Positions 13,801 through 62,300 of a stretch of DNA of 64,000 nt are shown here, in pieces. The notes beneath the pieces were generated by a model. That model was given only the letters and a program-made list of their open reading frames with translations. It did not search any database and was not told the origin of the DNA. The stretch is from contig NW_019217905.1 in the NCBI RefSeq assembly GCF_002571385.2, positions 124,070-188,069 on the forward strand, in the 5' to 3' direction. Both the position numbers and the translations under genes were made by a program. Origin of the DNA: Stylophora pistillata (taxonomy: Eukaryota). Position 1 is the stretch's first letter; each line of letters opens with the position of its first letter.

Positions 13801-16800
13801 TTTCTTTTTTTTGTTTGCGTTGCATATTTTATTTGCTGCAGTATTTTTTGTTTGCGTTGCATTTTTTTATTTGCTGCGGTACTTTTTTTCTTTGCGTTTT
13901 GATTTTTTTATTTGCTGCAGTATATTTTTTATTTGCTGCAGTATATTTTTTATTTGCTGCAGTATACTTTTTGTTTGCGTTGAGCCTTCTGGGCCACCGT
14001 AGCTTATCGAAAAAGTTATTGAAACTTCTGCTAGTGTGGAAGAAAGGAGACAGAGATTTCACAGAGAGAAAGAAAAAACAATGCAGCACGATACCTTCTC
14101 TCCCGTCACTCACAAAGTTCTCAGTCATTAGGACAATACCAGCATTCTAAGGAAACAACGAAAAGCGATGGTAGAATCATTGCAACTTTTGAGGAGAAGC
14201 TGTATGGCTGTACTTTTTTCTATCAAAGAATCTCAGAAAATTTTCAAAAAGTTGCGATGCCTTTAACTCGTCACCAGCTCTTTACTAGACGAATATTCTT
14301 TTAAACTCCCGCTATCGTTTCATTTTCAAATCTAGTTCGCCTTACAACTCTTTTCAACAGCCACGAAACAACTTTCGGGATTTAAGAGTATCGACTCACC
14401 TAGAAAAAGGATTAGAAACTGATCAATTTTTGGAAAATTGGAAATGGAAATAGAAAATTGGGGATATATTTCGTCCATTTGTAGTCTATCTGGTAACACT
14501 ACCAACCTTAAAAATGTCTTTGTTGTTCCTTCCTCCTCCTACACCACAACCAAGATCAAGTCACTCCATGGCCTTGAAAATCTGGGAAGGGAAACACAAT
14601 GGTCCGGTTATTTACACGAGGTCTAACCCACTCCGTTTTCTGCATGTAAACACACACAGCCGCTCTTACGAAGGGCTAAAGCTCGAATTGTCAGCTTTAT
14701 AAAGTCTTTACGGTGGCCAATTTACATTATCAAGTCAGTTGATAAAACTAAATTATCTTGTTATACACCCCGACCGACGCAGCACCGCAGTTTCTAAAGA
14801 AACTTCCCTCCCCTTTATTCATTGGCAGTGAAATACTTCACTGTTTTTTGACTCACTGATAATTTGGTAAGTCCCCGACGTCATCCATAAGTCCCCCCTC
14901 AACAAACACACAAAAACCATCTACATGTACCAGTATTCCCTCTTCGTAACGGGACTGAGTCCGCCATTTTAGTGAAATACATTGACAAAGAAACTAGCAA
15001 CATAGACGAATATTTCAACTGCAGCATTGTTAAGCGACACCACTCACCCTTTCCTTAGTGAGTCTGTTCTCGTTCCTCAAAAGGTACACGCTTTGGTCCA
15101 CACTAAGAAGACCCAGACGTGTCCCTTGTGGGGCCCTGACTAGCAGTCGGTAATGATTCCCCGGGAGTTGTTCCACTTCGTTGAGTTGCACCAAACTCCC
15201 GTCGGACTGCTGCTGCCATGCATCTGGAAATTCGACCTAATGTTGACAAAATGCGGTAAGTATTGTATAGGTATAAGAAATATAACTGTAAGAACAAGAA
15301 GTATTAGAAGTATGGTTATAGGTTGAGGGTATGTGAAAACGGAGGGCCCACGTTCGCCGATTTACTCAAGTAATAAACATGGAACTTCTCCATAAAATAT
15401 CCATACATCATTCACCAAAGAGGTAATGAGAATAATGAAACTTATCAGGTAGATATTTTTATCTTGATCTAACACCAAATTCTCTTATCTAATTTAAAAG
15501 GAAATGTGTAGCAGCTGGAGGGACAATCACATTTCGGGATTTAAAAGGCTACGACGACCGTTCTTATTTCTGCGAACACAAACTTTTCACAAAAATTAGT
15601 GCAGCTGTTTTGCGATGCAATGAAATGAAAAAGGTAATCATGAATCACAACGCAACACAAGTATTCATTTCTCTTTTTATGAACAATTTTTTTGGAAGAT
15701 TGCGGTTCAAATTAAAGATACAAGAAGTCCTTTAACCACCCAGAAGAAAATGAAAACCCTTTGACGGATTTTAAAGAAAATTCTTTCCCGCTTTCTTTAT
15801 ACTAAATCTTTTTCCCTCACCTCGGTGGGAAGTTTGTCATCAATTCTGAGCAAAATGCTGTCAGCTACAACTCGTTCGTTGCTGTCAATGTAATAACCAA
15901 TCAGACGCGCTGATGGTGACATTTCAGGAGTGACACGGAACGACCAACTTTTAAACATGCCGTCAAAATTGTTTGTTGTGTTGTGAGATATAATTCGTCC
16001 ACGAGACACAACCTGAAATCGAACTTTTCATATTAGACAAACACAAATCAGGCGCTATTGGAACTGGAGTGTGAATGGTGAGTTATCCATTCAGAAGAAC
16101 GAAAAGGTGCCACATCAGAACTAACATCTTTAAAAGTGTATGGCTGACAGAAAGGAGAATTGCATTGAGATCTCAGGAATAAAAGGGTTATCCATTGCGC
16201 ACATGTACTATCCTCGACAGCGTCCTCATCAGTGTACAGTCAACGCGGCAAAGGTGAGAATTCAACCTACCGCAAACGAAAGTTTAGCAGCAGCGTCGTT
16301 GCGGTCTCGGTAACTTTCACACTGTATTTTACGGCCAACCTACGAAAAAAAGGGCTAAATAAGCATGTTTTTATTTACGACGGACGAAGTCTGTGGTTTG
16401 GGGTAGTCTGAGAGTCAAACTAACCCAGGATTGCACTGGCTTCGCAAAAAAGGCAGGACTGCTCGTAGTTCATACCGCGTGATGACATATTTTTCTGATT
16501 GGTAATAGCAGGCTTTGGTTTCATGACACGCAAACGAAAAGCTCTCTATCAAACTATTCATGGACCAAGCTGTAAAACCACTTATCAAAACGTTCATATC
16601 AGGACTACAAACTCAGTGGACAGTTTGATTTGCCTTTCAATCGGCTACCTCCGCGAAAATCATTTTCGTCCCAGTCGATAAAATATGCATATACCTGCAG
16701 AAAAATATCTTTGTGAGTGTATATGCAGTTCTAAAATGAGCGAACGAAAAAATTGTGGAGTAGCGCTATCTCAGCTAGTATGGCCTTACACTGCTATCCG

Positions 16801-19800
16801 GGGATCACGAGTAAAAATCTGACTAAAGCCAAATGGTCATCTGCTGTTCACGATTTGTCTTCCAGCTCCTTCGATTGAGAATATCACGTGAGGATCTTTA
16901 AGACGAGCGGGGTTAAGAAGGTGTCTACTGCCAGAAAATCTTGAAATGTAAATCACTAAGGGTTGATCAGATAGTGAAAGTTACCTTTCCATGTGTCAGC
17001 TGGCGCACCATAATCAGCGGTCCGTTTTCTGCGTCAAATGGGGTCACCACCTTATTGGCCACCGCATTCTGTTCAGGAGTTAGTTTCTGGTTGTCCGTTT
17101 TAACCTAATAAAAAAAAAATTAATTACGCACCAGTCTCATACTGGACCGTGTGTAAATCTCATAATTATCACTTTGCCGGGTACTGTGGCGTTCTTTTGC
17201 AGGCTAAAATGGAGATTTTGGCCAGCCAAAATACTCGCCATCAAGTGATTGATCAAACTATTTTGCTGCCCTTTTTTTCTTCATTCGGCGGCTCGGGTTA
17301 AAATAACTCTGAGCTGGGTCCAAAACATAATTATTTACAATCTCTATTGTGTTATTACAGAGAGAGAGAGATTACATCTTCTGACCTACTAGATCAAAGA
17401 GGATGTTGGGTGGTGGTGGGTCATCATTCATATCAATACTGGGAGGCGGTGTGGCCGAGTGGTTAGGGTGCTGGACTTGTAATCCGGTGTCCCGGGTTCA
17501 AGTCTTTCACCCTATTATTCATTAGATTTGTTCTCGGTTGCCCCTAGTTCAACTCCTCGGCTGCGCTCTGTAAATAGCCCACCAGTGGGGATTCTTAAGC
17601 ACTTAGTTAGTCTACATTGTGGCTGAAAAGTCCCTTATGGGGAGCTTCAATTTACGTATTTATTATTTATTATTATTTTAAATCTTACAGTTGCAATTTT
17701 AATGTTTTAGTATTTTGCCAATTGATTTAGAGGCTTTATTTTAAACTGGATAATACATTGACAAATTGCTTAATTCTTCCACCTATTCATTTATCAATGA
17801 ATGTTACAAAAAAATTTCAACATTGAATTATCAGCCCCTTAAAGACTGCAATGTGACAGAAGTAAAGCTCTGGCATCTATTACTATCAAAAGAGTTTGGT
17901 GGATATCAAATTACAGTCAACTTTTTGTTGATTCAAAGCCAACTCAATTTGAAATAATCCAAATGGTTTTGAACGCACAATACATAATCTTTTTAGTTAT
18001 TACCCTACAGAAAGATGGATGAATTACGCTCACTGTGTTTGATCTAACCTTAATATGAATTTCGTCACAGTCTAAACAAGCATCCACCACAAACTCAACC
18101 TCTCCATTTTCATCTGTTAAGTCTACTGAATTGGGGTCTCGATCCTCTCTCCTCAAATCATTTTTAGCATCGCCTTTTATCCCTTGGGCAGAAATCAGCA
18201 TTGGAACATTCTTAGCTGGCTTTTTGTTGGGATAGGTAACCAAAGCCTAGAATACAATCGCAGCAATTATATCAAAATCTGCCAAACATTGCTAGAAGTT
18301 ATGCATTATTACTTTTATATGAAGAAACTAAAGTACATGGAACTGAAGATCCTTTCTGTGGGCCATGACAGTCCATGTGCTTTTCATTCTCATGACAAAA
18401 GACCAGATTAGCACACAAATCACCCTTTTCCCAGACTTTACTTGATTGTCAAGTGTAAAAGACCTTAGCCTATTCTCTGTTGAGTCACACAGTTTTTTTA
18501 ACTCAAAGTATGAGAGCTTCAAGACTGAATTTAACTGTATTTTTGGTAGATTTTGCCCTCCCTAGACCAATTAACAAGTAGAGTTACAAAATAATGTTGA
18601 ATTCCTGGAATTCCTTCCTCCTTGCCTCAACCTACTTTTTTTTAAAGGGGGGGGGGGTGAGATTCAACACCATAAAAAGGACTACATATGGTCATTTTAA
18701 GCAATTAGAAGCTACTATTTTTTTGTATGTTGTCTCTAAATTTTGAGCCAAAGTATTTCAAAGAGCTGTTATGTAACAGTTCTTACCTTCACTACATACC
18801 GCAATCCCGGTTTAAAGTATCTTGGCGTGTTTTTGAAGGCAATGCGGTAAGGGCTTGATGTAAATTGGCACGTCCTATCCTCAACTGTTGCCGTGTTACC
18901 TGTCACCAACTCAACAACATCAACCTGAACCAGAAGTCTGGCTTGCAACGGGAACCAGATTTTCCCAGGGAGGTCTCGGATCATCTGGACCCGTCGTGGT
19001 ACAGTAGTAACCCCACTGCTGTGGAGCTGAGTCAAAAATGGATGGAGGTGAATAGTGACACAAATATTGCTAAAAGAACAACTCTCTTCAATGAGCCAAT
19101 GAGTGAGTGAGCCAGTCAGTCACTAACTTAGTCAGTCGATCAGTTGAGATCAGTCAGTCAATGAGTCAGTGAGAGAGCGAATGAGTGATTGAGTGAGAGA
19201 GCAAATGAGTGCTTGAGTGAGTGAGTGAGTGAGAGAGTGAGTAAATGGGTGATTAGTCAGCCAGTAAGTCAGCCAGTAAGTCAGTCAGTCAATCAGTGTA
19301 TCAGCCAATTGATAAATAAACCCCATATTCTGTTCAGTCTATCAATAAACTGAACAAACAATGACTTAGTCAGTCTGTCTGTCTGTCAATCTAATCTGAT
19401 CCTTGTGTTATAACCTACCATGATGGTTTGCGAATCAAACATTATAGTTTGACCATCAAGACCCACTATAGACAAAGAATATTTAGCATTTGCCAGGACA
19501 GGTTTCCCATATGTGTACCTTGGAAAAAATGAACAAAGAGAGATGTGACCATGGGTTAACTTTATTTTGATTTCAAGTCAAAACAGCTAAAAAAAAAAAA
19601 AAGATTGGTTACCCTGTAAACCAAATTAAAATGTGGCATCCAATATGAATTGCCATTGTTCTGGACTTACTAGCCTTTCACACATGTGATAATCCTTTTA
19701 CGTTTCCATGTAAAGACGAGGCTAGTAAGTCCAGAACAATGGTAATTCAAATTGGATGCCATATTTCAATTTGGTGAATGGTGTAAAATTAAAATTGTGC

Positions 19801-22800
19801 AACAAGGAAGGAAAGAGTTCAAACAATGACACAGAACTTGCTTTTAGCTTTCTTGTTTATCAACTTCAAATACTCCACCCAGTTTTTTTCTGTTCACATC
19901 CAGACATTTATTTAAACATTGGAAATTTCTAGTGGGCCACTTCCTAAGGAGAGTTGTGATTCTCTGATGCATATGTAGTCCCTCACTATCACAGCAGAGT
20001 TCTGTCGGCAGTTTTCTTTAAATCTCATGTGTTTTTTTGTATGATACTTGTGCAAGAGCTGAGTGATAAGATTTGAGTTGACCACAGACTACAAAGATTC
20101 CACACTTCAAGCCAAACAGTTTAAATCCAACAAATTTTACTGCTATGTGACCACCACAATAGCACCTTTGTCACTGCCATATCATGGCAAAAATCAAGAA
20201 AATTTAATCAACGGAGTAAAAAAAATTGAAGTGGAAAAAGAGAAAAGGCCAGCAACAAAACAGATTGTAAATTAGCAAGAAGGCTTAGCTGCTTTTCAAA
20301 TTTGTGGCTTATATTTTGCCCTTTTTATGTTTCCATTTATTGTTTTCTCCTCTTCTCTACCTTAGCAAACAATAATACTCAAGTAAAATTTGTTGGATTT
20401 AAACTATTTGGGTTCAAGTGTGGAATCTTTGTAGTCTGTTATCAACTCTAATCTTATCACTCAGCTCTTGCACAAGTATCATACAAAAAAACACATAACA
20501 TATAAAGAAAACTACCGACAGAACTCTGCTGTGATAGTGAGGGGCTATCACTAAATTTAATCAACGGAGTAAAAAAAATTGAAGTGGAAAAAGAGAAAGG
20601 CCAGCAACAAAACAGATTGTAAATTAGCAAGAAGGCTTAGCTGCTTTTCAAATTTGTGGCTTATACTTTGCCCTTTTTATGTTTCCATTTATTGTTTTCT
20701 CCTCTTCTCGACCTTAGCAAACAATAATACTCAAGTTCCCTAAAGTTTTAGCAAAGGTCTAGTGATCAAAGAGTTCTCTTAAGCTCAATAGTAGAGCATT
20801 GGTGCACAGAATAAAAAGGACTGATATTTTATCCTTGCAGTGGGTACACAAGTTTTCTTTGTCCTACACTTTCGACTAGATGAATAAAACATTTTTTTTC
20901 ATGACTTAGCTCAAACTTTACCATCTTTCTCATTCTCTGTTACATTATTCTCTGAAAATTTCAAAAGAGCTACATTGTCTTTTAAAAGTATCTCAGGTTA
21001 GGATAGTGTTTGTTTTGGTAACCAAGTTATCTCTTACCTTGCAGTAATATTGATCGTGAATTCATTATCAGTTTTCAGTATGTAAGGTGGCACTGTGAGT
21101 TTCACCGAGAACTTGGGAAGCACTAAAATATTAAAGAAGTACGCAACGTTTAGCATGAGAAACATCAAGGAACTGATTGAGCCCTTCAATATGTATCCTT
21201 ACCATATTCTTTCACTTCAAACTGCACAGAAGTGTTGTGGATGTTCTTTGAAAAAAAAAGAAAAGAAAAAAAGGAATAAAGAAAAAGAAATTCAGTCAAT
21301 GACCACGTGTAAAATGCTTTTTCTTTTTTTATTTCATGTGACTGAAATCATTCTGTTTTAAGTTGAAATCTGTATTGTTTTAATATCACTGTTATTGACT
21401 GGGACAAAGATGTGATCCAGAGAAAACTAGAAAATGAGTAGCAAAGTAGAAATCTAACTTATCCAATAACATGCATCCAACTTGGTTTCGGAATTACGGC
21501 ATTACATATTTGTTCATAGAGTAAAAGATTTGCCATATTACCATCATTGAAGACATTTAAAGAGCTTAGAGAACTGGAATACCTGGTGACCGTAAACGGC
21601 TGTTATGGTCCAATTACCATGGAGTACAAAGTCGCCCAGTTCGAGTCTTTTTGATATGATACCTTGATAGGGAAATAAATTTATAAATTAAGCATGTCGA
21701 TCCCAACATCCACAATCAGTAACAGCCATAACACAATCATATAAAGAAACCTTACCATCATTTGCATTACTTGACAACCACCGAAACAATATTTCATCAC
21801 GTATTTAAACAGTAAAGACACCTTCCTTGAATTGCTGGGTGATTAAGACACGTAAATCATATTTTGAAGTTTACTGTACGTTTCATTAAGCAAGCCGCCA
21901 TTTTGAAATAGCCCGCGAGGAGCACGTGACAAAAACATGTTGGGTCTGAAGATTGATCACACTGACATTGCACGTAAAAATTCCGCATCTTATTCAAAAA
22001 TTAACTATCTAGCCCCCTTATCTACAAGTTCAGTTCTCAAAACAATTTCCGAAACACAACTCTTTCGAAAAAGTGAAGACGATAGCAAGAGATTAAGTAG
22101 AAAAGTAGTCGTGGTATATTCACACGTTTCAAAAAAAAAGAATATCAGTCGAACATGTGGCTAATAAAAGAAGAATGGACAATATGTACGTCTGGTGGGA
22201 CCTTCTTATACATCTCTCTAAAGGTTTGACAAGGAACAATTCACACCTGTAGTGGTATCCAAGTCTTTCCACTGTTGTACACGGACACCCTGTGGATTCT
22301 CAAAAAGAAAAGTATCACCATAAATTAGGTTAACAGGTTTAGGGCCAAACTCTTTTAAAACTCTGTAAAAGAGGTTGCTAAAAAATTATGTTCCAAAAGG
22401 GTCAGTCGCTTTGGTTAAAGGAGTGTGCTGTGATTAACGAATTCTTCATCGTTCAAACACTCAGAGGGGGTTAAGAAAAGGACACTGTTTGCAAATAAGA
22501 CGTAGTTGGAAGCCATCACGTCTCCAGCAGCGTCGATCTCTTTATAACCTTTCTCTTTATAACTCTTTATAAACGAACGCATTAAAAAATAAACAAAAAA
22601 CAAGCAGTAAATTCTTACCATAACTACCACGGTAATCTATAAAGAAATAAGATGTGTGGAAGTAAGATAAGTGTCGAGAAATAAAGATGCCAAAATACAA
22701 AACAAAAGGTTAGTTTGTTCGAAAAATCTTCATAGGGAATTTTTCCGTTGTCTGCCAACTCTTAGGGTCTTTCAATTATTCTCGTTTGTGTGCCCAATGT

Positions 22801-25800
22801 TTCAAATTTAAGCAAAAAAAAAAAGCCACCATACAGCTACCTTTACATTATCAAGGGTTTAGGGTTTAGCTTTGAGAAGAGGGATTCCTAAACTCTCTGT
22901 TACAAAAGAGTGTTTTCAGAGCAAGTAGGATTTGATTGCCGTATGAGTTTTAAGTTGATTCTGATGGGCAAAATGATATGTAAGGAAGACTGAAAGTATC
23001 ATGTAAATTTAACAAATCGACGGTTGTTTAATCCACAACATTTTAACCACTGTGATGACAAATATCATTGTCAATAAGAGTATAGACCATGCTTAACCAC
23101 TGTCGATTTGTTTGTGGCCAACTCGAAAGCTATGCTACTTTGGTCACTGTGCACATTTTACTTTTGATTATTGATGTAATTTACTGTTTTTTTTATATAT
23201 TCTGACTTTTATAATCTGTAGTAACCTCTTGAAATAGTGCGAATAAAGAGTTTCCTTCCTTCCTTCCTTGTACCACAATATGATTATCGATGTCAAATAT
23301 AAAACGGTTCTTCCAGTGCGTGACACGTTTCGTGATATGTGTCGTGACAAGTTGACGCGAGAAGCCCTGTCTGTACATCGACAACGTCAAATTGGCCAAT
23401 CAGATTGTGACGTTACTGCCGATTGTGGTGAATAGTGTACTCACCTTCCGCCTTGATGGCTTCATATCAAACTCGAGCGGCATCACTCTGATTTTCACTG
23501 TTTAAAAGAAAGAAATTTGAGTTAGACTCAGTTCACATGAGGAGTGAATAGTGAATTTCCTTTTCAAGGTTCGGTCGAAGGGGATCATTTGTAATATCTT
23601 ACCACTCTGTCTCGGTGTGTAGATGGGTTTGTCGGTCTGTATGAATACCACGCCGTCTTTGTAACTCAAAAGAATCTTTGCTTCTTTGTGAAACTGAAAG
23701 TGGCCATCGTCTGACTTTGCAATCAGATAAACATACTGTTTATCAACAGAGTTGGGATCTGAAAGGTCTTGCGGATTCACCTTGAGTGGGGTAAAAGGAA
23801 CAGCAGTAAGTAACAAACAAAATTCTACTTTTAATTGAACCTCAGATAGTACCTACTATTTTATATCTGGACCGCAAAGCCCTATTTTCTCTCAAAAAGG
23901 CCTCTGCTTTGCCATAAAAATATCTTGGTATAAGAATAAGATGTTTTTTTACATAAGGAAACACTTAGGTTTTACTGAGCTGGTACTTTCCCCTGACGTT
24001 AGAGAACACTTACAACATATATTCTTTAATTTTAACAAGATAACCTATACATTACAGAATAATCGAGTAAACTTGTCATACCTTTACAGGCAGAAAAACG
24101 CTGTTATCTGGAGAAAGGAAAATAAAACGATAAGACTTTGCATTATGTTACATGAAAAGATATATTTTTTCTCAGTATCAACCAATATGAAGTTACCGTT
24201 TGAAACAACTCCTTGTACTTCTGAGAATGTCTTTCGTCTGTGTGGATAGTCCTGTAGATACAACTTCACTGTTACCAGTTGTGGTGCGTCGAACACCGTC
24301 ACTGATACCTTCTCTTGGACACCAATGTGAAACACATTTGGAGCCATTATAGAAAACCTGAAATGATAAAATGAAAGATTGAAAGATAAATTTTCAACCA
24401 AGTTTCATGAATTACTCCTGAGATTACTGGCTCTTCGTCTCTCACATTCTTTAGAAAAAAAAATTTTTATTATCAATAACTACTAATTCTACTATGACCA
24501 ACAATATACGGCTCGTCAACATGTTCATTGTTTATCATATCTATAATCTAGATTTATTGATCTTGCGCTGCTTATAAGCCTTTATGCCTCTTATTTGGTT
24601 TCCTCACCATAGTCTTTTTTTCTAATCTTGATCAATTTTCGTAAATCGTAGTAACATATGAAATGGCAGATAAAATCAATTATAACATAACCAAAGTTAA
24701 GCGCGCGCTCTGATTGGTCAATTTAGCGTGCCCCATTTGCCCGTGGGTGTGCGCTGCTGACGTGAGCAAATGCAAAGACTATTTTTCCGCGCGCGCTTGT
24801 TTTTTCTGGTCACGTAAGACTTGTTAAATAAAAGGGAACTCGTTAGCTTCAATGTATCAATGTTATGTTATAAAACAAATGGTAAACACCACAGCGTACA
24901 CTATTGAGTTATGGATGCACTTGGAAGGTTTGCTAAGCACTCAAGAAGCTAGAATCGTTCTCGGCTATCGCCTCGCGCGACTCTTACGCTTCTTTCGTGC
25001 TTAGCAACCTCCCGCGTGCATCCATAACTCAATAGTGTACGCTGTGGTGTTTACCATTTGTTAAATAGAAAAAATAATTAACACGCTTGCGGCTTGATTG
25101 TATTAAGAACAAAAACCCCTACATTCTGATAATTGTCTGAAAAACAAAAATCCATTGATTTTACACCCTTTTTGACTAGACAAGAGCATATCATCACTGT
25201 TACAGATTACGCCATGAATGCGTTCAAATTTACAAATGAGTTCAACACTAAATAAGTTTACAGAGCCCAAGTCTATTAGCCGTCCTTCTTAACCAGGCAG
25301 CCTCCCCTGCCCCATTCAAAACGGAGAATTTTGAATGACGAACCTCTCTTACTCATGGTCTTATTCGTAGGGAACTTATAGAGCAATGTATGGTTAAAGT
25401 ATACAGATTTTTTTTCCTTAATTAAATGAAATCTAGCTTCAGAAGAAGGTTTGATATAAAGAGGTCAGTATTATATTAGAAAATATGAAAATACATATCT
25501 CATATCATTAAAAAGAATTATTTGTTATAACATTTAATGCGGCGCTCTTGCAGAGAATGAAATAAACATCCTCTTAAACGCCTGAATACATCCATGAATC
25601 AAAATTTAATTCAAAAATCAACATTCCGTGAAGGTTCATGTGAATTCGCCATATTTTTTGCTTTGCTATTGCCCGCCAAATGACCCACGCATGCTCCCGA
25701 TATTTGAGAAAAAACAATACTTTTACTTCCTGAGACGCCTACACGGTATTTGGAAAAACAAGATTACAATCAGCTACAGCACTTCTGGACGAACAATTAA

Positions 25801-36900: not shown

Positions 36901-39900
36901 AGATTTAAGATACCCTAAGTTGAATGAAATATTAGCAATACACGTGTGACACAAGTCCACATCCCAACTTCAAGATTCTCAGCAATGCCGGATAGCGCAT
37001 GTTGACGTCAGCGTTGAGATGCGGCCTCAAATTAGAGATTCAATCCACAAATTTCGTGATGCGTTCTAACCTTACCTTATTATCGCTGCATGTCTTAACA
37101 AGGATGTTTTGTCAAAAACGTTAGGAAATGAGAAGATTTAACTTATTGTTGCAATTCGAATGGTTTGTTACATGTACTACAAAAATTTTTAATACGTGTT
37201 ATGCATTCTTGGCATTGATTGACGCATGATTTTACACTTCTCGTTTTCACCTAACTCCAACCACCTTACAGACTGCGAACGCAGACACATCTTTGGTTAC
37301 CGCTTTTCTTCGCCCGAAAAGTAACGCGTGGGAATTCGAGCGGCAGAACTTTATCTTGTCAAATAACCTAACGAATCAGTTGCAGTTTAGCATGCGGGGA
37401 CACGTTTTCATCTATAAAATCATACGGGTATCATCACTTGCAATTTAATGTAAAGTGACAGCTAAAAGGTTAAGGCTGCTTTAGAAATAGCCCGGCGATA
37501 TAAAATTTATTTTCACTACTTAAAAGTGTAGATAACTTTTGCCACTCAATGAGAGTCCAAAGAGTAATCTTATCTTTCCAAATTGTCTTCTGATGTGAAA
37601 AATAATAGACTACGAATGCCGCCATTCTGAATATTTTTTACGGACTAGCCTTAGAAATCTGTTTGAACAATTAGAAGCTTCTAGGGAAAAAAACATTCCA
37701 GACCAACCAGGGTGGCAGCTGCGCGTGAAAACCGCACGTTATGGTTTTTGCTTCCAAGACGAGGCTACTGTAAAATTGCTACACATTTAAAGGTAACTAT
37801 ACATTTGCCAATTCTTAAATATATTTTCCAAGGGCAGAGATACTAATCTTACGGTTTCTTGAGCATACCGACTCTCCAGTAGAGGAGTTCGAGGTAGAAT
37901 GAACCAAATATTTGTTCAAAAAAAGAATATTAAAACTAGATCATTGAAGAAACTCGGAAAGTTGTTACTGATCTGCCCGGGCAGACTGTCAATTTATTCA
38001 TGCTGAGTGTACTGACGAGAAATTGTCATCGTCGTGATTTCTCCTCTGACAAGTTTTTTTTGGAGATCATTTGCATAGAGGAAAGCAACAACCGTTAAAA
38101 AACTCCACGTTGACAGAATAGCGAGGTGCCGAAACCCAAGTAAAAGAAAAGTGTAACTCTCGTTACGTACCTCGTACTGTTTGTGCCAAGGAATTTGACA
38201 AGCTTCTTCACAAACCTCAAACCAAGTTTGAATTTCTCTACGCTTACGCTGGTGGAAGCATCAAGCACAAATACTAGATCTAAACTGTTATCATACTGAT
38301 TGAAGATTGCTCTCCCTCGTGTGTCTCCGGAGGAGTTTTTTGCATCGACACTAGTGTACGCAAGTAAGGTATCGATCAGATTTTTACGAAGGTTGAAGGC
38401 CGTTGTGTTAACATCTTCAAAACTGTCCTCGACTTCATCTGATTAAAAAACAAAAATGGAAAAAATATTCAAACACAAACAAAAAAGAAACATTATCTTG
38501 TGTTTGGGTCATATCCGTGAAACTCATTTGCTTAAAACAAAACCTTTTTAACACATAAACTAATGGAAAAAGTAGGCATAATTCTATACCTTTACAGAAA
38601 GTCTCTGTGCCATTCCAAGTCCCGTTCTCATTACAGATCCGCACCGCAGAACCCTTGAGTACAAATCCATGTTTGCACTCGAATTTCACAAGGTCTCCTT
38701 TGTTGTAGCTGCTACCGTATTTTCGTCCGCTTACGGGAGTACCAAGAATTGGGCAATGGGTGTCTGAAAGAAAAATATTAAGCAATTCAAACTTCATTTC
38801 TCATAAGGCCTCAAACACATAGTTTAGAGGAAAATAGTTTCAATTCTTCAATATAATTTTCATCAAATGACCATCGAGGGCACATAAACTAAGGGTAAAA
38901 TTAGTGGCGAGTGGTGCTAAAAAGTTTTGAGATTTGACTTTTGTGATTCCAATCCTTATGTTATAAATTGAAAGGTAAACATCACTTTGCGCTGTCTGAT
39001 AAGACAAGATAAGCCATTTCTCATTTCCGTAGTTCAAATGAACTGATGAAAGAAAATACAAATTGGACTTACCATGGTAACCGGCAAAACATACTTACTT
39101 CCGTTTTGACAAGTAGTCAGAGATCCACTCCATTCTTTATTTTCCAGACAGGTTCTTACGGCAGAGCCGTGGAGTTTATATCCTGATTGACATGAAAACT
39201 GCATCGTACTTCCAACTGTTCTGTATCCAAATCGGCGACCACCCTCTGGTCTTCCAGGATCAGCGCAAACTTTCTCTGTTTGAATGACAATTAGAAATTT
39301 AAAATAATGAATGAAATAGCATATCCCTCATTAATCAGTGAACAGTTCAAATGTCCATAAAAACTCTCGTGGCAAACAAGTCTTAATCGTAAGCGAACGT
39401 ATTTGCATCCAGACGTGGAAACAAAAAAACAAATTCCGAAAAAACAAGGAAAAATGGTTGAAAGAAATAGCTGATGAGTAAGATGGCCAAATCCTCCCTC
39501 CATTATTTATTCCTGTTATGTATCGCATGCCTCCTCCGCCCCGTTGAATTGAACGCCTAGGTTGGGTTACACCAAATGCACTCACTGATACAATATGGCC
39601 ACCGTCGAGGTGTCCAGCCATTTTTCAAGCAACTGACTGTTTCGTCTCCTTTCAACTCATAACCTTCATTGCACTTGAACAACAACGTTGCACCATAAAA
39701 GTAATTGGTATCAGATGAGGTTACATTTCCATTTCGCATAGTTAGCTTTCCAGGATTCTCGCATTGGATTCCTGTGGACATATATTGAGGGAAGAAAATA
39801 TTAGAACAAATTTGAGGTGGAGAATAGAGACGAATTTGAACTCTATAGGTAAATTAGATTTATATTTAAAGTTCATGTGCTTTGTACTTAAGTGTGTTGC

Positions 39901-42900
39901 CGTTTTCTACCATCCACTGTAGTTGTTTTCAAACTATGGTCAATTTGTTGAGGTATTTTGGGAGATACGCCTCTTATTAACCTCAGTTTACTCAGTCTTT
40001 ACTGTAAGTTACAGAGACTTTAGAAAGAAGCGGGCCGTACAGTGAAGTACGGCCCACTAAATTAACCAATCAGCCCACACACAGAGAGATATGATAAGTA
40101 TCTGTTACATGCAGTTGTTGTATAGTTTTAAATCTCGATCGTGAGGGACGTTTTACGACTTACGTGAACATGAAGGAGCTGTAGACCACACTCCATTTTC
40201 GAGACACTTTCTGCTGCTAGGTCCGTTAAGTTTGTAGCCTCTCACACAGCCGTAACTGAGTGTATCTTCAAAGTCATAACTGGAGCCTTCAATCTGAGCA
40301 TAAGAAATATTATCGGGCTTCCCGCAAGGACCTGAAAAAAGAAAATAATAGCGATGGATAGTCCTGAATAAAAGGAGAATAAAACACTACCTGACCTAGA
40401 CGACATGAGGAGTTAAAGTCGCTAAATTTTTGGCAATTTCAGCGAAAAGTCGATTTGCAAGAAGCCGAAAAGCGTACTACCATGTTTTCTCAAGCCTATT
40501 GCGTTTTTGAGAAAGTGACTCTTGAACTGAACACACTCGCAAGTAATCAAACATGGAGTCTACAATGCCATGATTTCGTGAATAAAATACTCTTACTGTG
40601 CCAGTATTTGTGCTTTACAGTCCATGGTTTCACTGGAAGGGGCGAGAGAATAAAACAAGTACTTATGCGACAACATAAACAACTAGAGTGTAACGAACCT
40701 TCACACTCAGGTGCTCTGGACCACTTTCCAGTTATACCGCATTTTCTTCTTTTAGGTCCTTTCAGTTTGAAGCCATCATCACATTTATACCTTAACGTAT
40801 CCTTGAAGTCAAAACTTGAACCTATGTATTTAAGGTGTGGTATATCTTCTGGTCTTCCACAAGGTCTGGGCACTAAAAGACAATAGGAGGTAAACAGATA
40901 AATTCAGATCAAAATATACAACCTTGTGAAGGACTTTACGTTAAGGAAGATTTTGGAATCAAAACCTTAAAACGTAAAATGCGAACAAAACAAATTACTT
41001 TTTTCCTTGCAAATTTTTGTCTTTGAAATCGCTTGAAGGATTCAAAATGGTAGTTCTCTTTTTCCCTTTGTATCACTTTTAAGTCGTACTGTGATACGAT
41101 AAAATTAAAAGATAAATGAAAATTGATGGTCCTGGTGGTGATCAAGGTTCAAATACGTATAGAAAGGCTGAATTTAATATTGGAAACTTCCGACATGGGA
41201 GATCAGTGCAATTAAAGAGTAGAATTAATCATTGATAACAACAAAAACATATGCACCATCACTATGATTTACATTTTTTTCATTTGCTGACAGAGAACTT
41301 TCATGCAATTAAGTGATTTGAAGTTTCCTTACCGTAACGTTTGCACTTGCTTCTGAGTGACATTAATGAATTGATCCTTTCTAATACGAAGATCTCGGCA
41401 CATTTTTGTCATATTCTACTAATTGGGAATACTATATTTTCCTTAATGTTAACTTCGAATGATCGCTGTTAAACCGCCCGAGTATTCTCCAGCTATGAAT
41501 TACATTATTTCTAATCATTAGTTTTTTCCTTTGGGAGAAGCCGTGGATTTTAAGGCTTTAAATCACGTTTGAATCATTTCTTGTTACCTAAACATTTGGG
41601 TTCCTTCTTCGCACTCCATTTTCCTCTCCTGCAAGTCCGCAGTTCTGACCCGGACAAAATGAACCCTTTGTGACAGACGTATTTTGCTTTGGAGTAGCGA
41701 ATGTTGATGTAGATCATGGTATGTTTCGGTGGATTCTTCAGTAGATCTCGGAGCATCTTTACGCAACCACTCCTACTAGACCCTGAAGTCAATCGATTGC
41801 ACACAAGTAAATTAAGGTCGTCATACCTTATTTCCTCGTATAAGCGCCCGCGCTCTAATAACCGCTCTTCCCCGAATAAGCCCCCACCTCCTTGCTAGGC
41901 CATAATGTCAAACGAGCGCCATCCTCGAATAAGTGCCATAGCCTCCTCCCTCAATTTCTTAAATAGGAGAGCCTGTTTCTCTTCCCACTTCATAACTTTT
42001 TAAGCTTCAATTACAGCGGGATCAGTACAAGAGAATAGATTCTTTTCCGTTAAGTCACTTCCAGTTTATTCTATTTCCATGTGCGTGTAAAGTTCCTTTA
42101 TATGCGCAATCATCTGTTCTTTTAATTTCCTTTTCCTATTGCCGTGCCAACTTAAGAAGCGCCCCCTTGAATAAGCACCCTCCTTCAAATAAGCGCCCCC
42201 TCCCCTTAATTGACAGTGCTTATTTGAGGAAATGCAGTACACGAGTGCAAAAACTAAGGAATTTCATGTCGTTATTTATTACCTGGAAGGGGAGGGTTCG
42301 TGGGATTTTGGTTGTGTCACGATCAGTTGTCTTGATTTTAAATAATCAAATGCTTGAGATACGAGATTTCAAACTTACTTGCACTCTTGATAGGCTGAAC
42401 GGAACAGGTCAATATGCCAGCAAACGCACATATTACAATCTGCGAAGAGGAATAAAACAAAAACAAAAAAATATCAGATTGTCTATCCAGTCACGCAACA
42501 CCTTGAAGTGGAAGAGAAAGCGTTTGGCAAGACGAGCTGAAACGAAGGTTGCCAACGAGGCGACTTAAATCCTCTGATGCAGGGAACGATCGAAAGAACA
42601 AACGAGCGAGTAAACCATGGATTATTTCAAGTGGTCTCTATGAAGTATACAGAACGGGTCCAGAATTTTCACTTCACCCTATATCGCACTAACTCGGTTT
42701 TAGAGACGTTTGGATCCATCGAGGACATTTGTCTGGACTATCTGCTTATAATTGCTTGAGCACAAAACGTCACATGATTTATCGATGTGAGGGAAAAGTT
42801 GAGAATTTAAACACCTTTTTTACTGCAAAAATATCCTAAAAACGACAATCCAGTAAAACTGATGCATCCCAAAACTCTTGTCTAAGATAAACTTCGTCTT

Positions 42901-56300: not shown

Positions 56301-59300
56301 GGTAGGCACTTTCCGCATTTGGGTCGCTGATCTGTTTTGTGTTCGTTAGATATTCCAGCACGTACACGTTTGGAGCAAGATAAAGCATCGTTTGCTCCCC
56401 ACATCCTGTCGGTTGGCGGAAGAATTTTTCTAGACCACCTTCGATAGTAGTGTTAATGGCTGGACCAAGAAGGTTTCCTAATGGGAATGGAATATTAGAA
56501 CAATCGTGATTCATTTCCACTCGATTTCTTATCGAGTGAGTCTCTTATAGTCATTTTTCTGTGGCTTTCCACTTGATCATAGCGACAGTATTTTGTTCTT
56601 TCTTTTTCGGGCAAGATGATATACTGAAAGTTCACGGTTTTCCGGCCAACGACTTTGCCCCAGTTCCCTTATCTATTTTAGATGGCCTAGACAGTGGTCA
56701 ATCACAGTTCAGTAAACAGCGCAGGCACTGCGCAGGCACTGCGCAAACTAACTCAAGAGATAAAAGTTTACCTGGAATTCATCAAGAGTAGTTTGACGTT
56801 TGATCGCCAATGAAGAAATCTCAGATTCAGTGTAGTATAATCAATTTAGGACGGAACCCAATCACTGTCAAACTCGTGCTCCGGGCAATCCTTGAGTCAG
56901 CAGAGCATATTCCTCGTCTAATATGTCAAATTTTTTTATGCTGTTCAACTTATGATATTTGATTTAAAAATGTTGTGGGTCCACTTTGATCGACACTATT
57001 ACCCCTTTAAGTCTCAATAAATATAAATAAACGATAGCTTTTTCATCTAGGTTGTCTGACATTTAAAGGTTAAACATCTTATGACAGGAAATACTTTGAA
57101 AACTCCATAATATCATTTCTCCAATTATTCACTAAATTCTAAATGTAAAATTTTTCTTACCGGTCAAGTACACGACAGCTCCAGTTGAACCAGTTATTGC
57201 CTTTGGGGGAATTTCGAAGTCAACTACAATAAGTAACATTTACTCATATCAGGTTTTAGAAGTATACATATTAGCACACGATAAAAACGAAGACTCCTTT
57301 TGACAACCTCACTGATATTGTTAAACAATTAAATCAAAACATATCTTATTTAGAAGCATTACAAGAGCTTCATTACATTTGGTGATAACAGATCTTGTTT
57401 AGTAGTATTAAAAGAACTTCATTACCTTTGGCGTTGGGAACATGAATGGAAATAACATATTAGTATTAGCCACTCAGTTAAAAAAATATTGTAGGCAGTT
57501 GATAGATTCCTATCTAGATGGCGATCTTACTTTGTAAGTAGATTAATTGTTACCTTTACTTTCTGTGAGAAATTAGTCCATTGGACTGTACATAAGTTTG
57601 TACTAAGCCGTTAGTGATTATGGCTTATAATCCTACGGTAGTTTGACATGGAAGCAGATGCCTAGTTCTACGGTGATTACAACTTGGCATAAGGTAATTC
57701 AAATATCTTGCGGTAAGATATATTTTAATTAGGATAATATGCTTGATAAATGAGAGAGTAATTTGATCTAGGTAAAGTTAGTATCGTATTTGTATTCCTG
57801 GAAATTCCTACTTCTTATACTTTCGATTCTTTTCAGATTATTATTTTTTTTAGATCAATTTGACGTTGGTCAAATACTGAGAGCTTGCTAATTGTCGCCT
57901 TTATAAGTTGAAAACCGGCAGTTTCTTAAAGTTGTTGTGTTATACCCCAAGCTAACAAGTTGTTTTGAATTCCTAAGAAAAGGAATAAAGAAGTATTATC
58001 TTTACAAGGAGTGTTAGAAACTCTTCCAACAAAGTAGATTCAAAAAGTACCCCATGAATTGGCCCAGAGATTTCCTAAAATTGAATCATTTCCTAGAAAA
58101 CCTACAAAAGCATTAGTAAAAGAATTGTTCCCGTGGATCTCATGGAACTTGTTAGCCGAGTAGTTGCTGGCAACGCACATTTGTTTCGAGACTGATGATT
58201 TATAGTTCAACACTAACAAGGCTACGAGCATTTCAAACAGAACCGGACACGCTCTGTAGTCATGCCCTTCAATTTCGCGCCAACAAAATAGTCTCCTCCA
58301 AAACATTTGAGATAAAGCATACTTGTAATGTTCCTTGGTGATATGGTTGAACTGTGTTCTCCATTATTAGTGTCATCGTTGAGAATTCCTGCGAGTGAAA
58401 GCAACGAACATCCGTATCAATAATCATTACGGCGGGCCATTCCCACAAAATGTTTCGTTTCCCTTCGCCCACCTGACCGACCGACCAAAGTATAACAAAT
58501 GAATAGTCAAAATTCAATATTTCATTTAAACTACGCTGAGCAAAGGAGCGTACAATTATAATCAGACCTTTCTATTTCACGATTAATCTTTTCAGGCTCC
58601 CTCTATCAATTTTATTTCTCTTCTGAACTTTAATTTTTTACACCAATTTCAAAGGCATGAGGGTAACGGAGAAGGGGAGTGCAAATGGAATTACCTTTAG
58701 GATCCAGTGTAAAAGATCGCGAGGTACGATTTTCCTTTCCTTCTGGCTACAAGTTATGAAATAAGGAAAAAGACAGAAATATAGCGCTGGTGATATGTTT
58801 CAAAAGAAAAAAAGGATAACACTGAAAGTATGCTGAAATAAGTTAGGACCGAAGCAGCACTTTACTTCAACATGCTTCAGTGTCTTGTGTAGTTCTGCAA
58901 GAGCAATTTCCGTCTTTAAGACAAGGCTATAAGATACGATGAATATATGAAGTTCATATATTTTTTGAACTGCGGTTATAGATACGTATAATGCACGATC
59001 CTCGCAGTAGAGAGCGCTATTTATGCAATAGCGAAAATCAGACCCGAAAAAAATCAGGCCTGTACGGGATTCGAACCACTGACCTCTGCGATACTAGTGC
59101 ACCGCTCTACCAATTGAGCTAACAAGCCAACTGGGAGTAGGCCGTTAAGTTGATTCGTAATAAACCCGTGATGATAAATCAGATACGATGAATATATGAA
59201 GTTCATATATTTTTTGAACTGCGGTTATAGAGGGTTTATTACGAATCAACTTAACGGCCTGCTCCCAGTTGGCTTGTTAGCTCAATTGGTAGAGCGCTGC

Positions 59301-62300
59301 ACTGGTATCGCAGAGGTCAGTGGTTCGAATCCTATACAGGCCTGACCTTTTTCAGGTCTGATTTTCGCTATTGCATAAATAGCGCTCTTTACTGCGAGGA
59401 TCGTGCATTATACGTATCTATAACCGCAGTTCAAAAAATATATGAACTTCATATATTCATCGTATCTGATTTATCATCACGGGTTTATTACGAATCAACT
59501 TAACGGCCTACTCCCAGTTGGCTTGTTAGCTCAATTGGTAGAGCGGTGCACTAGTATCGCAGAGGTCAGTGGTTCGAATCCCGTACAGGCCTGATTTTTT
59601 TCGGGTCTGATTTTCGCTATTGCATAAATAGCGCTCTCTCCTGCGAGGATCGTGCATTATACGTACAAGGCTATAAATATCAAATCTCGCCCGCCGGTAT
59701 GAACATTGTTAAATCTTTCTGTATTGTCCTTACTTTTCCACGGAAGAATATTTACTGATTGAACATTTTTTGAACGCACCTTTTAAAACATTATTCTGCT
59801 TGTTAACATCAAAAGTGCTTTATTTACGATAGCGATTTCAGGATTCATTCACCACTTGAACTTTATGCGCACGTATGACACAGGGTCTCAATGGGTGAGG
59901 GCTTTTACGGCTGGGGGTTAAAGTTTTGGCCAATTTACGGCAACCAATTTAGCAAAATGATAAGCATTAGCTTGATTAAAATTTGTCAACTTTTAACGAC
60001 TGTCCAGCATCCATCTGAAGTAAACAAATATTTCTTAGTAATATATTGCAGATATAGACCCACTTACCACAACAAGAAGCTTTCGTTGTACGACGTCCAC
60101 TCCCCTTGTATCCCAAAAGACTTCACCCTCTTTTTTTACTTCAAGAATGGATGAGACTTCGATTTCTATTTCCCTTGCTGTTTTGGGAATAATTGGGACT
60201 GCAACAGATTTGGCATCGTTTGGTTGAAGGTAAAGTATCCCTATCAAAACAAGGCTGTCATCGGCAGCAGTAGAACAGAAGTCTTTGTTACCTCTGAGGT
60301 ATACCTTTGCCTTTTGGAGATACAATGAACCAGAATGTAATTAAGACGCAGTCTCTGTAAAAGCGGTCCGGTGCCGTCGGTTCAAAAATTCGATTTGTTT
60401 CAAACTTTACACATAGTTTGTTCACAAAACTGTCGTTAAAGGAATTTTTTGCTTCGTATAGTTAGATCGATGCTTTTACTTTGGAGATAATTTTTCAGTT
60501 TGACACCTATTACTTTGATTTTTCCACCACGACCGTAAATATACAACTTTTAATCTCGGTTCAGTGCAAAATTCCAACTTCTTCCCCATGATATTTTAAT
60601 TTAAAGAAAGCGACTAGACTTTTTAAGTCTGTAATACACGTTTCGACAGAAACTTCTGTCATCTTCAGTTAATTACAGTACAAAGCTGTATTTTCATTCA
60701 GACTAACTAAAATAGGATAGTAGAGTATGGAAATATGAAAATACGTTGTGGTTTTGGCGAAATTCTAGCACAGCCGGCCAACGTATTAGGTACATTTTCC
60801 AAAATTCCAGCCACCTATGCACAAAAAGCGGACTCAATTACTTACGAAATTTACTTCTACAACCTATGGTCGACGCCTGAATTAAGCGCTTTGAGGCTTC
60901 ATACTGCTTGATGTTACCATAATACAGCATTTAGGGTAAGAAAAACTTCAAGCCCATCTAGGTAAATACTGCCGCCGAAAGTCGACGTTTCCCTTTAGGG
61001 CGACCAAATGTTCTGTTTTTCATTCAGTAATGAATACGAAAAAAAAGTAGTACCTCGAAGCGTCAAACATAACACACGCTACCTTCTCTTTATCTGATCA
61101 GTTCTAAGACAAGTGTATTGGGGTAAAAACCAATAATAAATCAAAGTGGCTGTGAGCTAACGAATTCGAAAAATGAACTATGAAAGGTGAGATGTCGAGG
61201 CCACTGACCCAGCGACTTCGTATTTTAAAACGTTTGTGACGCTTTAGCCGTCGCTCAGTAAAACTGCGTTTCAAAATAACTTCAAAATAACCGAACCTTT
61301 TATCTGAGAATGTATTTTTGTGAACAGTGTCAAGAGGGCCGAAAGCTGACGGAGGGAAAGACATTTATTTAATTAAATCGATCTACTTATGGGGAAAACC
61401 GAAGGCCCACTGATTGCGCAGAACCGTGGTCTCGGTTAGATCTTGTGTACAACCGAGTAATTGTCATTTGTACAGAACGGAATAAAAATGATGACCTCTT
61501 AGGTTAAGCCTACCCGGTATTGATTGTCATTCTTTATCATATAGTTGAAAACTGTCGCCAGGATCGAAATCTGCTCTCCTCTTTTCACTGAGTAAGGCAT
61601 CTTGAGCGAAACAAAAAAATCTTTCTTGGAAACGATCTGTAGTGGTAAGGCTAGGCCCAATCCTGTTGTGTTACTGATGGCCACGGCCTGTATAACCCAA
61701 GTAGTTATAGTGTCAGGTATCGTGGCTTCCATTTTTGCAGTCCCATCCTCCCTGTATGAAAGTAGGACATTTTTTGTCAAGCTATTATAGGAGTAACAAT
61801 TGCACGTTATATTTGTTAAACTCTCTCTATGGTCGGTTCTTGAGGTTCTCCTTAAAAACCTAAAATAGAAGTTGTAGCATTTGGTTGGTACCGAGCATTG
61901 GTAGCCGCGTGCAGACGCTTCAGAGAGCGCTCCGTGTAAAAATTTAAGCTCTGAGTCACATTTCTCATACATCATGAAGCGACTGAGAAATGATGAAATC
62001 CTGGCCCTCTAGTTTTAGCAGTAGGCTTGTCATAGGGGATCTATCTGTAGTAAATTCCTCTGTCAGTAGCCGGTGAAAAGTGAGCTGTATACTCAACTCT
62101 GAAGAATGCCAAGTGAATTTTACACAGATAGGAGTGGCCTTGACGAAGAATTAACCACCTATGAACTGAGTAGATCTCTTTTATTACGTTACATGCACAA
62201 AAAAAACTGTGGTAAATGAAAAGTTTTTGAGGCTGGGTTCTTTCTCTTTTTTCATGAATATGAGTGTTTGCTTATTTATAGCCCTCGATACTCTCAAGAA

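What the first reader, a model, noticed from the sequence alone, without database searches (positions are those of the whole stretch)
14561..14563. Single in-frame TGA in the otherwise intact C3-A gene: null allele, error, or recoded stop
Seen: exon 18 reads ATT TTC AAG GCC ATG GAG TGA CTT GAT CTT GGT TGT (IFKAME*LDLGC), codon about 633. The other 35 exons are open, with intact splice sites, thioester and catalytic His. No alternative acceptor avoids the stop. It lies about 45 codons before the RKKR beta/alpha site, so termination would give nearly a free beta chain. Known: TGA followed by C is the leakiest stop context, and TGA can encode selenocysteine when a SECIS is present. Inference, in order of likelihood: recent loss-of-function allele or consensus error (e.g. 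CGA/TCA to TGA); programmed readthrough controlling beta-only versus full-length C3; Sec insertion near the LNK disulfide Cys. The exon is 75 nt, phase 0-0, so skipping keeps frame but removes that Cys.
Basis: partly seen in the sequence, partly recalled or inferred. Interest (0 to 1): 0.7.

Follow-up and report, generated by a model that had tools for sequence, protein, structure and literature searches.

The report
False stop in coral C3 assembly
The stop codon in this coral's complement C3 gene is in the assembled genome but in none of the eight sequencing runs checked, which read arginine or glycine there, so it is most likely an assembly error at a two-allele site and the gene is likely an ordinary, intact C3.

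Summary
The TGA is in the assembly as described: exon 18 of 42, codon 633, 45 codons before RKKR, the only stop in a 1,731-codon C3. It is not in the reads. 0 of 31 raw RNA reads (3 samples) and 0 of 5 DNA contig sets carry it; all read AGA (Arg) or GGA (Gly). One DNA sample holds both alleles, and neither is the assembly's letter. The same third-letter pattern recurs at intronic sites 14950 and 16821, so the likely cause is a heterozygous site written as an arbitrary base. Exon 18 is spliced in on both sides. None of 32 homologous proteins with the scored motif has Cys there, and the closest orthologues have Gly. No SECIS was found, and protein identity does not fall after the stop. Readthrough, selenocysteine and editing are refuted as species traits. 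A private stop allele in the assembled colony is not formally excluded, since no raw DNA reads were available. Ordinary gene, low interest, but a warning about lone stops in this assembly; an earlier unchecked scan note on other DNA of this genome reports similar vanishing breaks.

The parts
14561..14563 (-). Codon 633 of C3-A: TGA in the assembly; AGA (Arg) or GGA (Gly) in every run laid. Only base 14563 is in question.
   Evidence: assembly; 31 RNA reads, X2 contig; X5, X6, X7, X1 contigs
14507..14581 (-). Exon 18 of C3-A, 75 nt, phase 0-0, holds the DLGC motif; spliced in on both sides in RNA
   Evidence: model; joints 14581-15048 (13, 3, 10 reads) and 14146-14507 (6, 9, 3 reads)
278..27039 (-). 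C3-A gene, exons 1-36 of 42; exons 37-42 lie beyond the window's left end, with the true stop about 5.3 kb outside (locus L010)
   Evidence: 87% identical to P0001 (1,501 of 1,723 aligned residues)
12484..12537 (-). Exon 20, holds the RKKR beta/alpha processing motif (residues 678-681)
6140..6331 (-). Exon 28, thioester motif GCGEQ (residue 1033), start of the TED domain
   Evidence: Pfam TED_complement E 3.3e-14
4712..4874 (-). Exon 30, VIHREM with His1148, the position of the C3 catalytic His (role recalled)
14950..14950 (.). Intronic control site with the same pattern: assembly C, runs read A or G; X6 holds both bubble arms
   Evidence: X2 A; X5 G, X6 A 4.7 and G 4.5, X7 G, X1 G
16821..16821 (.). 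Intronic control site with the same pattern: assembly G, runs read T or C
   Evidence: X2 T; X5, X6, X7, X1 C

Best explanation
The TGA is most likely an assembly artefact: reads show that base 14563 is a two-allele site (AGA Arg or GGA Gly on the coding strand), and the assembly likely wrote a third, arbitrary letter there. Shown: no run carries the stop; one sample carries both sense alleles; two nearby intronic sites have the same third-letter pattern; exon 18 is spliced in. Inferred: the site was held as an ambiguity code (or unresolved base) and a later program replaced it with a base chosen without regard to the alleles; which program is not known. Inferred: C3-A is translated full length as a normal thioester C3, cut at RKKR into beta and alpha chains.
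For: Raw RNA at 14563 (+ strand letters): X22 14 of 14 T, X23 7 of 7 T, X24 8 of 10 C and 2 of 10 T; 0 of 31 carry the assembly's A. DNA contigs: X2, X5, X6 read C and X7 reads T, all four from one sample S2; X1 reads T; 0 of 5 carry A. In each of these runs it is the only difference in the contig piece that covers it (584-762 letters laid). Of 13 variant sites seen in 14150-17200, S2 carries the assembly's letter in at least one run at 10; at 3 (14563, 14950, 16821) it carries two other letters and no run has the assembly's. At an assumed 1-3% rate of three-allele sites, 3 or more of 13 has P 0.0003-0.006 (rate assumed, not measured). All four full-length Pocillopora records have Gly at this codon, matching the GGA allele; among 32 of 93 fetched proteins that hold the scored xDLGC motif the residue is E 20, G 7, N 3, A 1, K 1. 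Identity to P0001 is 561 of 632 before and 940 of 1,091 after the stop (Fisher P 0.14). Programs that pack DNA in two bits replace ambiguous bases with A or a random base (PMC3052304, passages), and some assembly tools emit IUPAC codes for alternative paths (PMC4515008, passages).
Against: It is not established which colony the assembly came from, so no run is proven to be the same individual. The DNA evidence is contigs, which drop rare variants; no raw DNA reads were available. Only 8 of 24 listed runs were laid (5 samples, 3 studies), and about 2 in 100 of each RNA run was read. S1 carries only alleles also seen in S2, so these two may not be independent. The third-letter count rests on one 3-kb stretch chosen because it holds the stop; leaving the target out and counting clusters once, 2 of 8 has P 0.003-0.06 at assumed rates of 1-5%. 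A simple fixed bit-mapping of ambiguity codes does not explain all three letters in one orientation, so the replacing step is unidentified. No paper documenting this exact error mode in a coral assembly was found.
Confidence: 0.94

Rival explanations
1. A real, private nonsense allele: the assembled colony carries TGA as a third allele at this codon. The transcript would likely be removed by nonsense-mediated decay (stop in exon 18 of 42), or yield a near-complete free beta chain.
For: The assembly has the letter. The source colony is not identified, and contigs drop rare variants (header). The site is demonstrably variable. Decay of a stop-bearing mRNA could hide it in RNA.
Against: 0 of 5 DNA contig sets and 0 of 31 RNA reads carry it. 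It needs a three-allele site, and two more such sites within 2.3 kb in introns where S2 otherwise carries all 10 assembly alleles. No decay downstream. AGA or GGA to TGA is a transversion, not a CpG transition.
Confidence: 0.05
2. Programmed readthrough of UGA-C sets the ratio of beta-only to full-length C3.
For: TGA is followed by C, a leaky context (recalled), and lies 45 codons before RKKR.
Against: The mRNA has no stop at this codon in 31 of 31 reads from 3 samples. Homologues have sense residues and the tandem paralogue has GAA. A search for Nematostella + complement C3 + thioester + readthrough returned 0 papers.
Confidence: 0.005
3. Selenocysteine is inserted at the UGA, or RNA editing turns the stop into a sense codon.
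For: In-frame TGA five codons before a conserved Cys; RNA differs from the assembly at this base.
Against: No UGA in the mRNA. 0 of 32 homologues have Cys at the position. No SECIS family hit at E up to 10 in the 20 kb left of the window or in the 2.7 kb after the true stop. For editing: DNA contigs hold the same two letters as the RNA, and U-to-A or U-to-G editing is not a known chemistry (recalled).
Confidence: 0.005

Closest known systems
Coral complement C3, orthologue P0001 (XP_027048067.1, Pocillopora damicornis; its automatic name is 'ophiophagus venom factor-like') and its cluster members in P. verrucosa and P. meandrina
   Same: 87% identity over the whole chain; signal peptide region, RKKR, GCGEQ, HRE and the C-terminal region all align; Gly at the codon in question matches the GGA allele.
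   Different: The assembly's copy has one stop at codon 633, absent from reads; an Arg allele segregates here and was not seen among the 32 homologues scored.
Tandem paralogue C3-B, P0024 (labelled Stylophora pistillata by its source)
   Same: Same strand and contig; 42 exact-matching segments mirror the 42 exons of C3-A, micro-exons included; 1,714 of 1,716 residues placed exactly in the held genome.
   Different: No stop; Glu (GAA) at the homologous codon; about 66% identical in the exon used as query.
False premature stops from consensus errors in draft assemblies; replacement of ambiguous bases by two-bit programs (PMC3052304)
   Same: A single wrong base at a heterozygous site, absent from reads, in an otherwise conserved and spliced gene.
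   Different: The wrong base is neither allele, which points to replacement of an ambiguity code rather than a miscalled haplotype; the paper describes aligners, not this assembly, and the responsible step is not identified.
UGA-C programmed readthrough and eukaryotic selenoproteins (recalled)
   Same: In-frame TGA followed by C in the assembly text.
   Different: Both need the UGA in the mRNA and usually in orthologues; neither holds here.

Membership tests
Selenoprotein (Sec at UGA) | In-frame UGA present in the mRNA | tested here: not met
   0 of 31 RNA reads
Selenoprotein (Sec at UGA) | SECIS element in the 3' UTR | tested here: not met
   No SECIS family among Rfam hits at E up to 10. SECISearch3 was not available and the 3' UTR end was not mapped.
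Selenoprotein (Sec at UGA) | Cys or Sec at the aligned position in homologues | tested here: not met
   E 20, G 7, N 3, A 1, K 1 of 32; no C
Programmed stop-codon readthrough | Stop codon present in the transcript and kept in orthologues | tested here: not met
Programmed stop-codon readthrough | Ribosome footprints or peptides beyond the stop | not testable with these tools
   No Ribo-seq or proteomics tool; moot if there is no stop
Null allele or pseudogene | Stop present in the DNA of real individuals | tested here: not met
   0 of 5 DNA contig sets from 2 samples; contigs drop rare variants and the source colony is not identified
Null allele or pseudogene | Decay or relaxed constraint after the stop; loss of spliced transcript | tested here: not met
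   88.8% vs 86.2% identity, P 0.14, no further stop or frameshift; seven spliced joints listed between 11598 and 16983. dN/dS not computed: no orthologous DNA fetched.
Complement C3 (thioester protein family) | Thioester motif GCGEQ in a TED domain | tested here: met
   residue 1033; PF07678 E 3.3e-14
Complement C3 (thioester protein family) | Tetrabasic beta/alpha processing site | tested here: met
   RKKR at 678; cleavage itself not tested
Complement C3 (thioester protein family) | Catalytic His about 115 residues after the thioester | tested here: met
   VIHREM, His1148; its role is recalled, not tested
Complement C3 (thioester protein family) | C-terminal C345C (NTR) domain, which separates C3/C4/C5 from alpha-2-macroglobulin | tested here: met
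   By alignment: exon 42 is 87% identical over 106 residues to the C-terminus of P0001, which carries PF01759; not scanned against Pfam directly
Complement C3 (thioester protein family) | Covalent opsonisation after convertase cleavage | not testable with these tools
   needs protein work

The most novel reading that the evidence does not exclude
Codon 633 of coral C3-A is a real three-allele site (Arg, Gly, UGA-C), and the assembled colony carries a leaky stop allele that releases a nearly complete free C3 beta chain while readthrough still supplies some full-length C3: a segregating truncation allele in a core coral immune gene.
Probability: 0.03. Interest if true: 0.45.

Novelty: not a real feature. 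Interest (0 to 1): 0.07.

Why it matters
As biology it does not: C3-A is likely an ordinary intact coral C3 with an Arg/Gly polymorphism. As a caution it does. If third-letter bases are spread through this assembly, lone stops and odd substitutions in it should not be trusted without reads. 4.5% of single-base changes in this coding sequence give a stop (704 of 15,570). At the density seen here (3 in 3,051 bases, biased upward because the stretch was chosen for the stop) about 1 in 5 genes of this length would gain a false stop; at a third or a tenth of that density, 7% or 2%. The error may also explain why no C3-A protein of this species came back from three protein searches while C3-B did (these searches are weak evidence of absence), so counts of coral C3 copies based on this annotation may be one short.

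Tried and rejected
Exon skipping: no 14146-15048 joint among the 15 joints listed (1 further row not shown), while both inclusion joints were seen in all three RNA runs. Reads from the paralogue posing as C3-A: rejected, since C3-B differs at many bases of exon 18 and has GAA, while reads with no other difference carry AGA or GGA. A second copy or haplotig of exon 18 in the genome: the DNA search found only the window itself and the C3-B exon; the other 19 of 21 matches were short hits to intronic parts of the query. A fixed bit-mapping of IUPAC letters: fits 14563 and 14950 on the + strand but 16821 only on the - strand, and not the other isolated C/T sites, so it is not supported; any third letter at a transition site fits one of its two outputs, so the match carries no weight. 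A public C3-A protein of this species, whole, truncated or with X: none returned, so whether the deposited record holds the same letter was not seen directly; the C3-B protein has no X and matches the held letters, a mild hint that the letters were fixed before annotation. The first gene model (40 exons, stop at 644) missed two micro-exons and was replaced. Paper searches for this error mode, coral C3 with factor B, C3-factor B linkage in cnidarians (0 papers) and C3 readthrough (0 papers) gave nothing on this locus; only listings and abstract starts were seen, except passages of PMC3052304 and PMC4515008. The library lacks most subscription papers. Scan notes near this place or holding all the search words: none.

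Full report
Observation. The gene lies on the minus strand. Bases 14581-14507 translate as IFKAME*LDLGCGVGGGRNNKDIFK, with TGA at 14563-14561 followed by CTT. The held genome G000 has the same letters at C122. Using the closest full-length homologue, P0001, and the stretches beside the window, I built a 42-exon model with AG acceptors and GT donors throughout; 36 exons are in the window. RKKR begins at 678, GCGEQ at 1033, and His1148 sits in VIHREM.

Organism and gene. The neighbouring paralogue C3-B encodes P0024, labelled Stylophora pistillata by its source: 1,714 of 1,716 residues were placed exactly, in 42 segments, and the two left over sit at segment junctions. So this is a pocilloporid stony coral. 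C3-A is 87% identical to Pocillopora P0001 and its exons hit A2M_BRD and TED_complement. The 'venom factor-like' labels on some homologues are automatic names for C3-family proteins.

Reads. The run search listed 24 runs; I laid 8, from 5 samples and 3 studies. In raw RNA, base 14563 (+ strand A in the assembly) reads T in 14 of 14 reads of X22 (8 start places), T in 7 of 7 of X23 (5 starts), and C in 8 and T in 2 of 10 of X24. On the coding strand these are AGA (Arg) and GGA (Gly). 0 of 31 reads carry TGA; pooled, the 95% upper bound on its share is 9%, though reads are not independent individuals. Exon 18 is spliced in: joint 14581-15048 has 13, 3 and 10 reads and joint 14146-14507 has 6, 9 and 3; no skipping joint is among the 15 listed, with one row not shown. 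In DNA contigs, X2, X5 and X6 read C and X7 reads T, all from sample S2; X1 from sample S1 reads T. S2 is therefore heterozygous Arg/Gly, and neither allele is the assembly's.

The signature. In 14150-17200 the five DNA contig sets show 13 variant sites (tabulated). At 10 of them (four isolated, six in two tight clusters) at least one S2 run has the assembly's letter, as expected for ordinary heterozygosity. At three no run has it and S2 shows two other letters: 14563 (assembly A; C/T), 14950 (assembly C; A/G, with both bubble arms in X6 at depth 4.7 and 4.5) and 16821 (assembly G; C/T). Two of the three are intronic, so this is not about the codon. Three of seven isolated sites is what random replacement of an ambiguity code by A, C, G or T would give (half expected). 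Real three-allele sites are an unlikely account: at an assumed rate of 1-3%, 3 or more of 13 has P 0.0003-0.006. Leaving out the target and counting each cluster once, 2 or more of 8 has P 0.003-0.06 at assumed rates of 1-5%. The rates are assumptions and the sample is small.

Mechanism. Shown: the site is a two-allele polymorphism, the assembly's base is a third letter, and this recurs nearby. Inferred: the site was carried as an ambiguity code or unresolved base and later overwritten. Such behaviour is documented in general: SSAHA2 replaces ambiguous bases with A and BWA-SW with a random base (PMC3052304, passages only), and the gap closer Sealer writes IUPAC codes where paths differ (PMC4515008, passages only). 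Neither paper concerns this assembly. A fixed ASCII bit-mapping did not fit all three sites in one orientation, so the responsible step is unknown. At an RGA codon, one in four random letters gives TGA.

Rivals. Readthrough needs the stop in the mRNA; it is absent. Among 93 proteins fetched, 32 hold the xDLGC motif scored, and the residue at this position is E in 20, G in 7, N in 3, A in 1 and K in 1; the rest are fragments that do not cover it or vary in the motif (P0069 and P0070 read DLGY, with E at the position), and many of the 32 are close relatives of each other. All four full-length Pocillopora records have Gly, and C3-B has GAA. Selenocysteine needs UGA, a SECIS and usually Cys homologues: none is met; Rfam gave no SECIS at E up to 10 in 20 kb left of the window or in 2.7 kb after the true stop. 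Editing fails because DNA holds the same letters as RNA. An old pseudogene fails because identity is 561 of 632 before and 940 of 1,091 after the stop (P 0.14) with no second lesion. A private null allele remains possible at about 5%: the source colony is not identified, DNA evidence is from contigs that drop rare variants, S1 and S2 may not be independent, and decay could hide a stop allele in RNA. It would still have to explain the two intronic third-letter sites.

Comparison and novelty. The gene passes the sequence tests for complement C3 and fails those for selenoprotein, readthrough and pseudogene. The stop is best classed as not a real feature. Searches found no paper on this locus or on readthrough in cnidarian C3 (listings only; the library is incomplete). 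Two unchecked scan notes on other DNA of this genome describe breaks that vary between samples or vanish in RNA; I did not test them and they are not counted as support.

Verdict. Observation confirmed in the assembly, interpretation partly supported, artefact 0.94, interest 0.07. What is worth keeping is the warning that lone stops in this assembly need a check against reads, and the side observation of a C3, factor B-like, C3 cluster.

Noticed in passing
window 30368-41843 (minus strand), between C3-B (47678-82039) and C3-A (starts 27039): A factor B/C2-like gene: at least five sushi exons, a vWA domain and a trypsin domain with GDSGG, on the same strand between the two C3 genes. The Oculina model P0020 fuses C3 with sushi and trypsin parts that match this gene, which hints at the same adjacency there. 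It recalls the C4-factor B-C2 linkage of vertebrate MHC class III (recalled); one paper search for such linkage in cnidarians gave 0 papers. No exon model was built.
   Followed up: partly
window 14563: A true Arg/Gly polymorphism at codon 633: S2 holds both, X22 and X23 only Arg, X24 mostly Gly. Gly matches Pocillopora; Arg was not seen among 32 homologues.
   Followed up: partly
window 14950 and 16821: Further assembly bases that match neither allele of a heterozygous sample; the error may be genome-wide and could create false stops or substitutions in other genes.
   Followed up: partly
window 278-27039: No protein of this C3-A gene from this species came back from three searches, while C3-B is on record; the stop may have kept it out of the annotation.
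   Followed up: partly
window 24082-24107 and 22619-22636: Micro-exons of 26 and 18 nt in C3-A, with counterparts of about the same size in C3-B; not checked in RNA.
   Followed up: no
window 278-630: Exon 36 encodes a long Lys/Arg/Glu-rich low-complexity stretch in the alpha chain, also in P0001 with a few residues fewer; a possible second processing region, untested.
   Followed up: no
window about 58980-59760: Three near-identical tandem copies of a short repeat inside a C3-B intron, seen as repeated peptide strings in the frame listing; the string looks like a reading of a tRNA-like sequence, so possibly a SINE. Not analysed.
   Followed up: no
window about 13150-14100, 14660-14810 and 15420-15520: High-copy repeats in C3-A introns 17-19 and 16: summed contig depth in the thousands to tens of thousands against about 30 for unique DNA, with many partly fitting RNA reads from other copies.
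   Followed up: no
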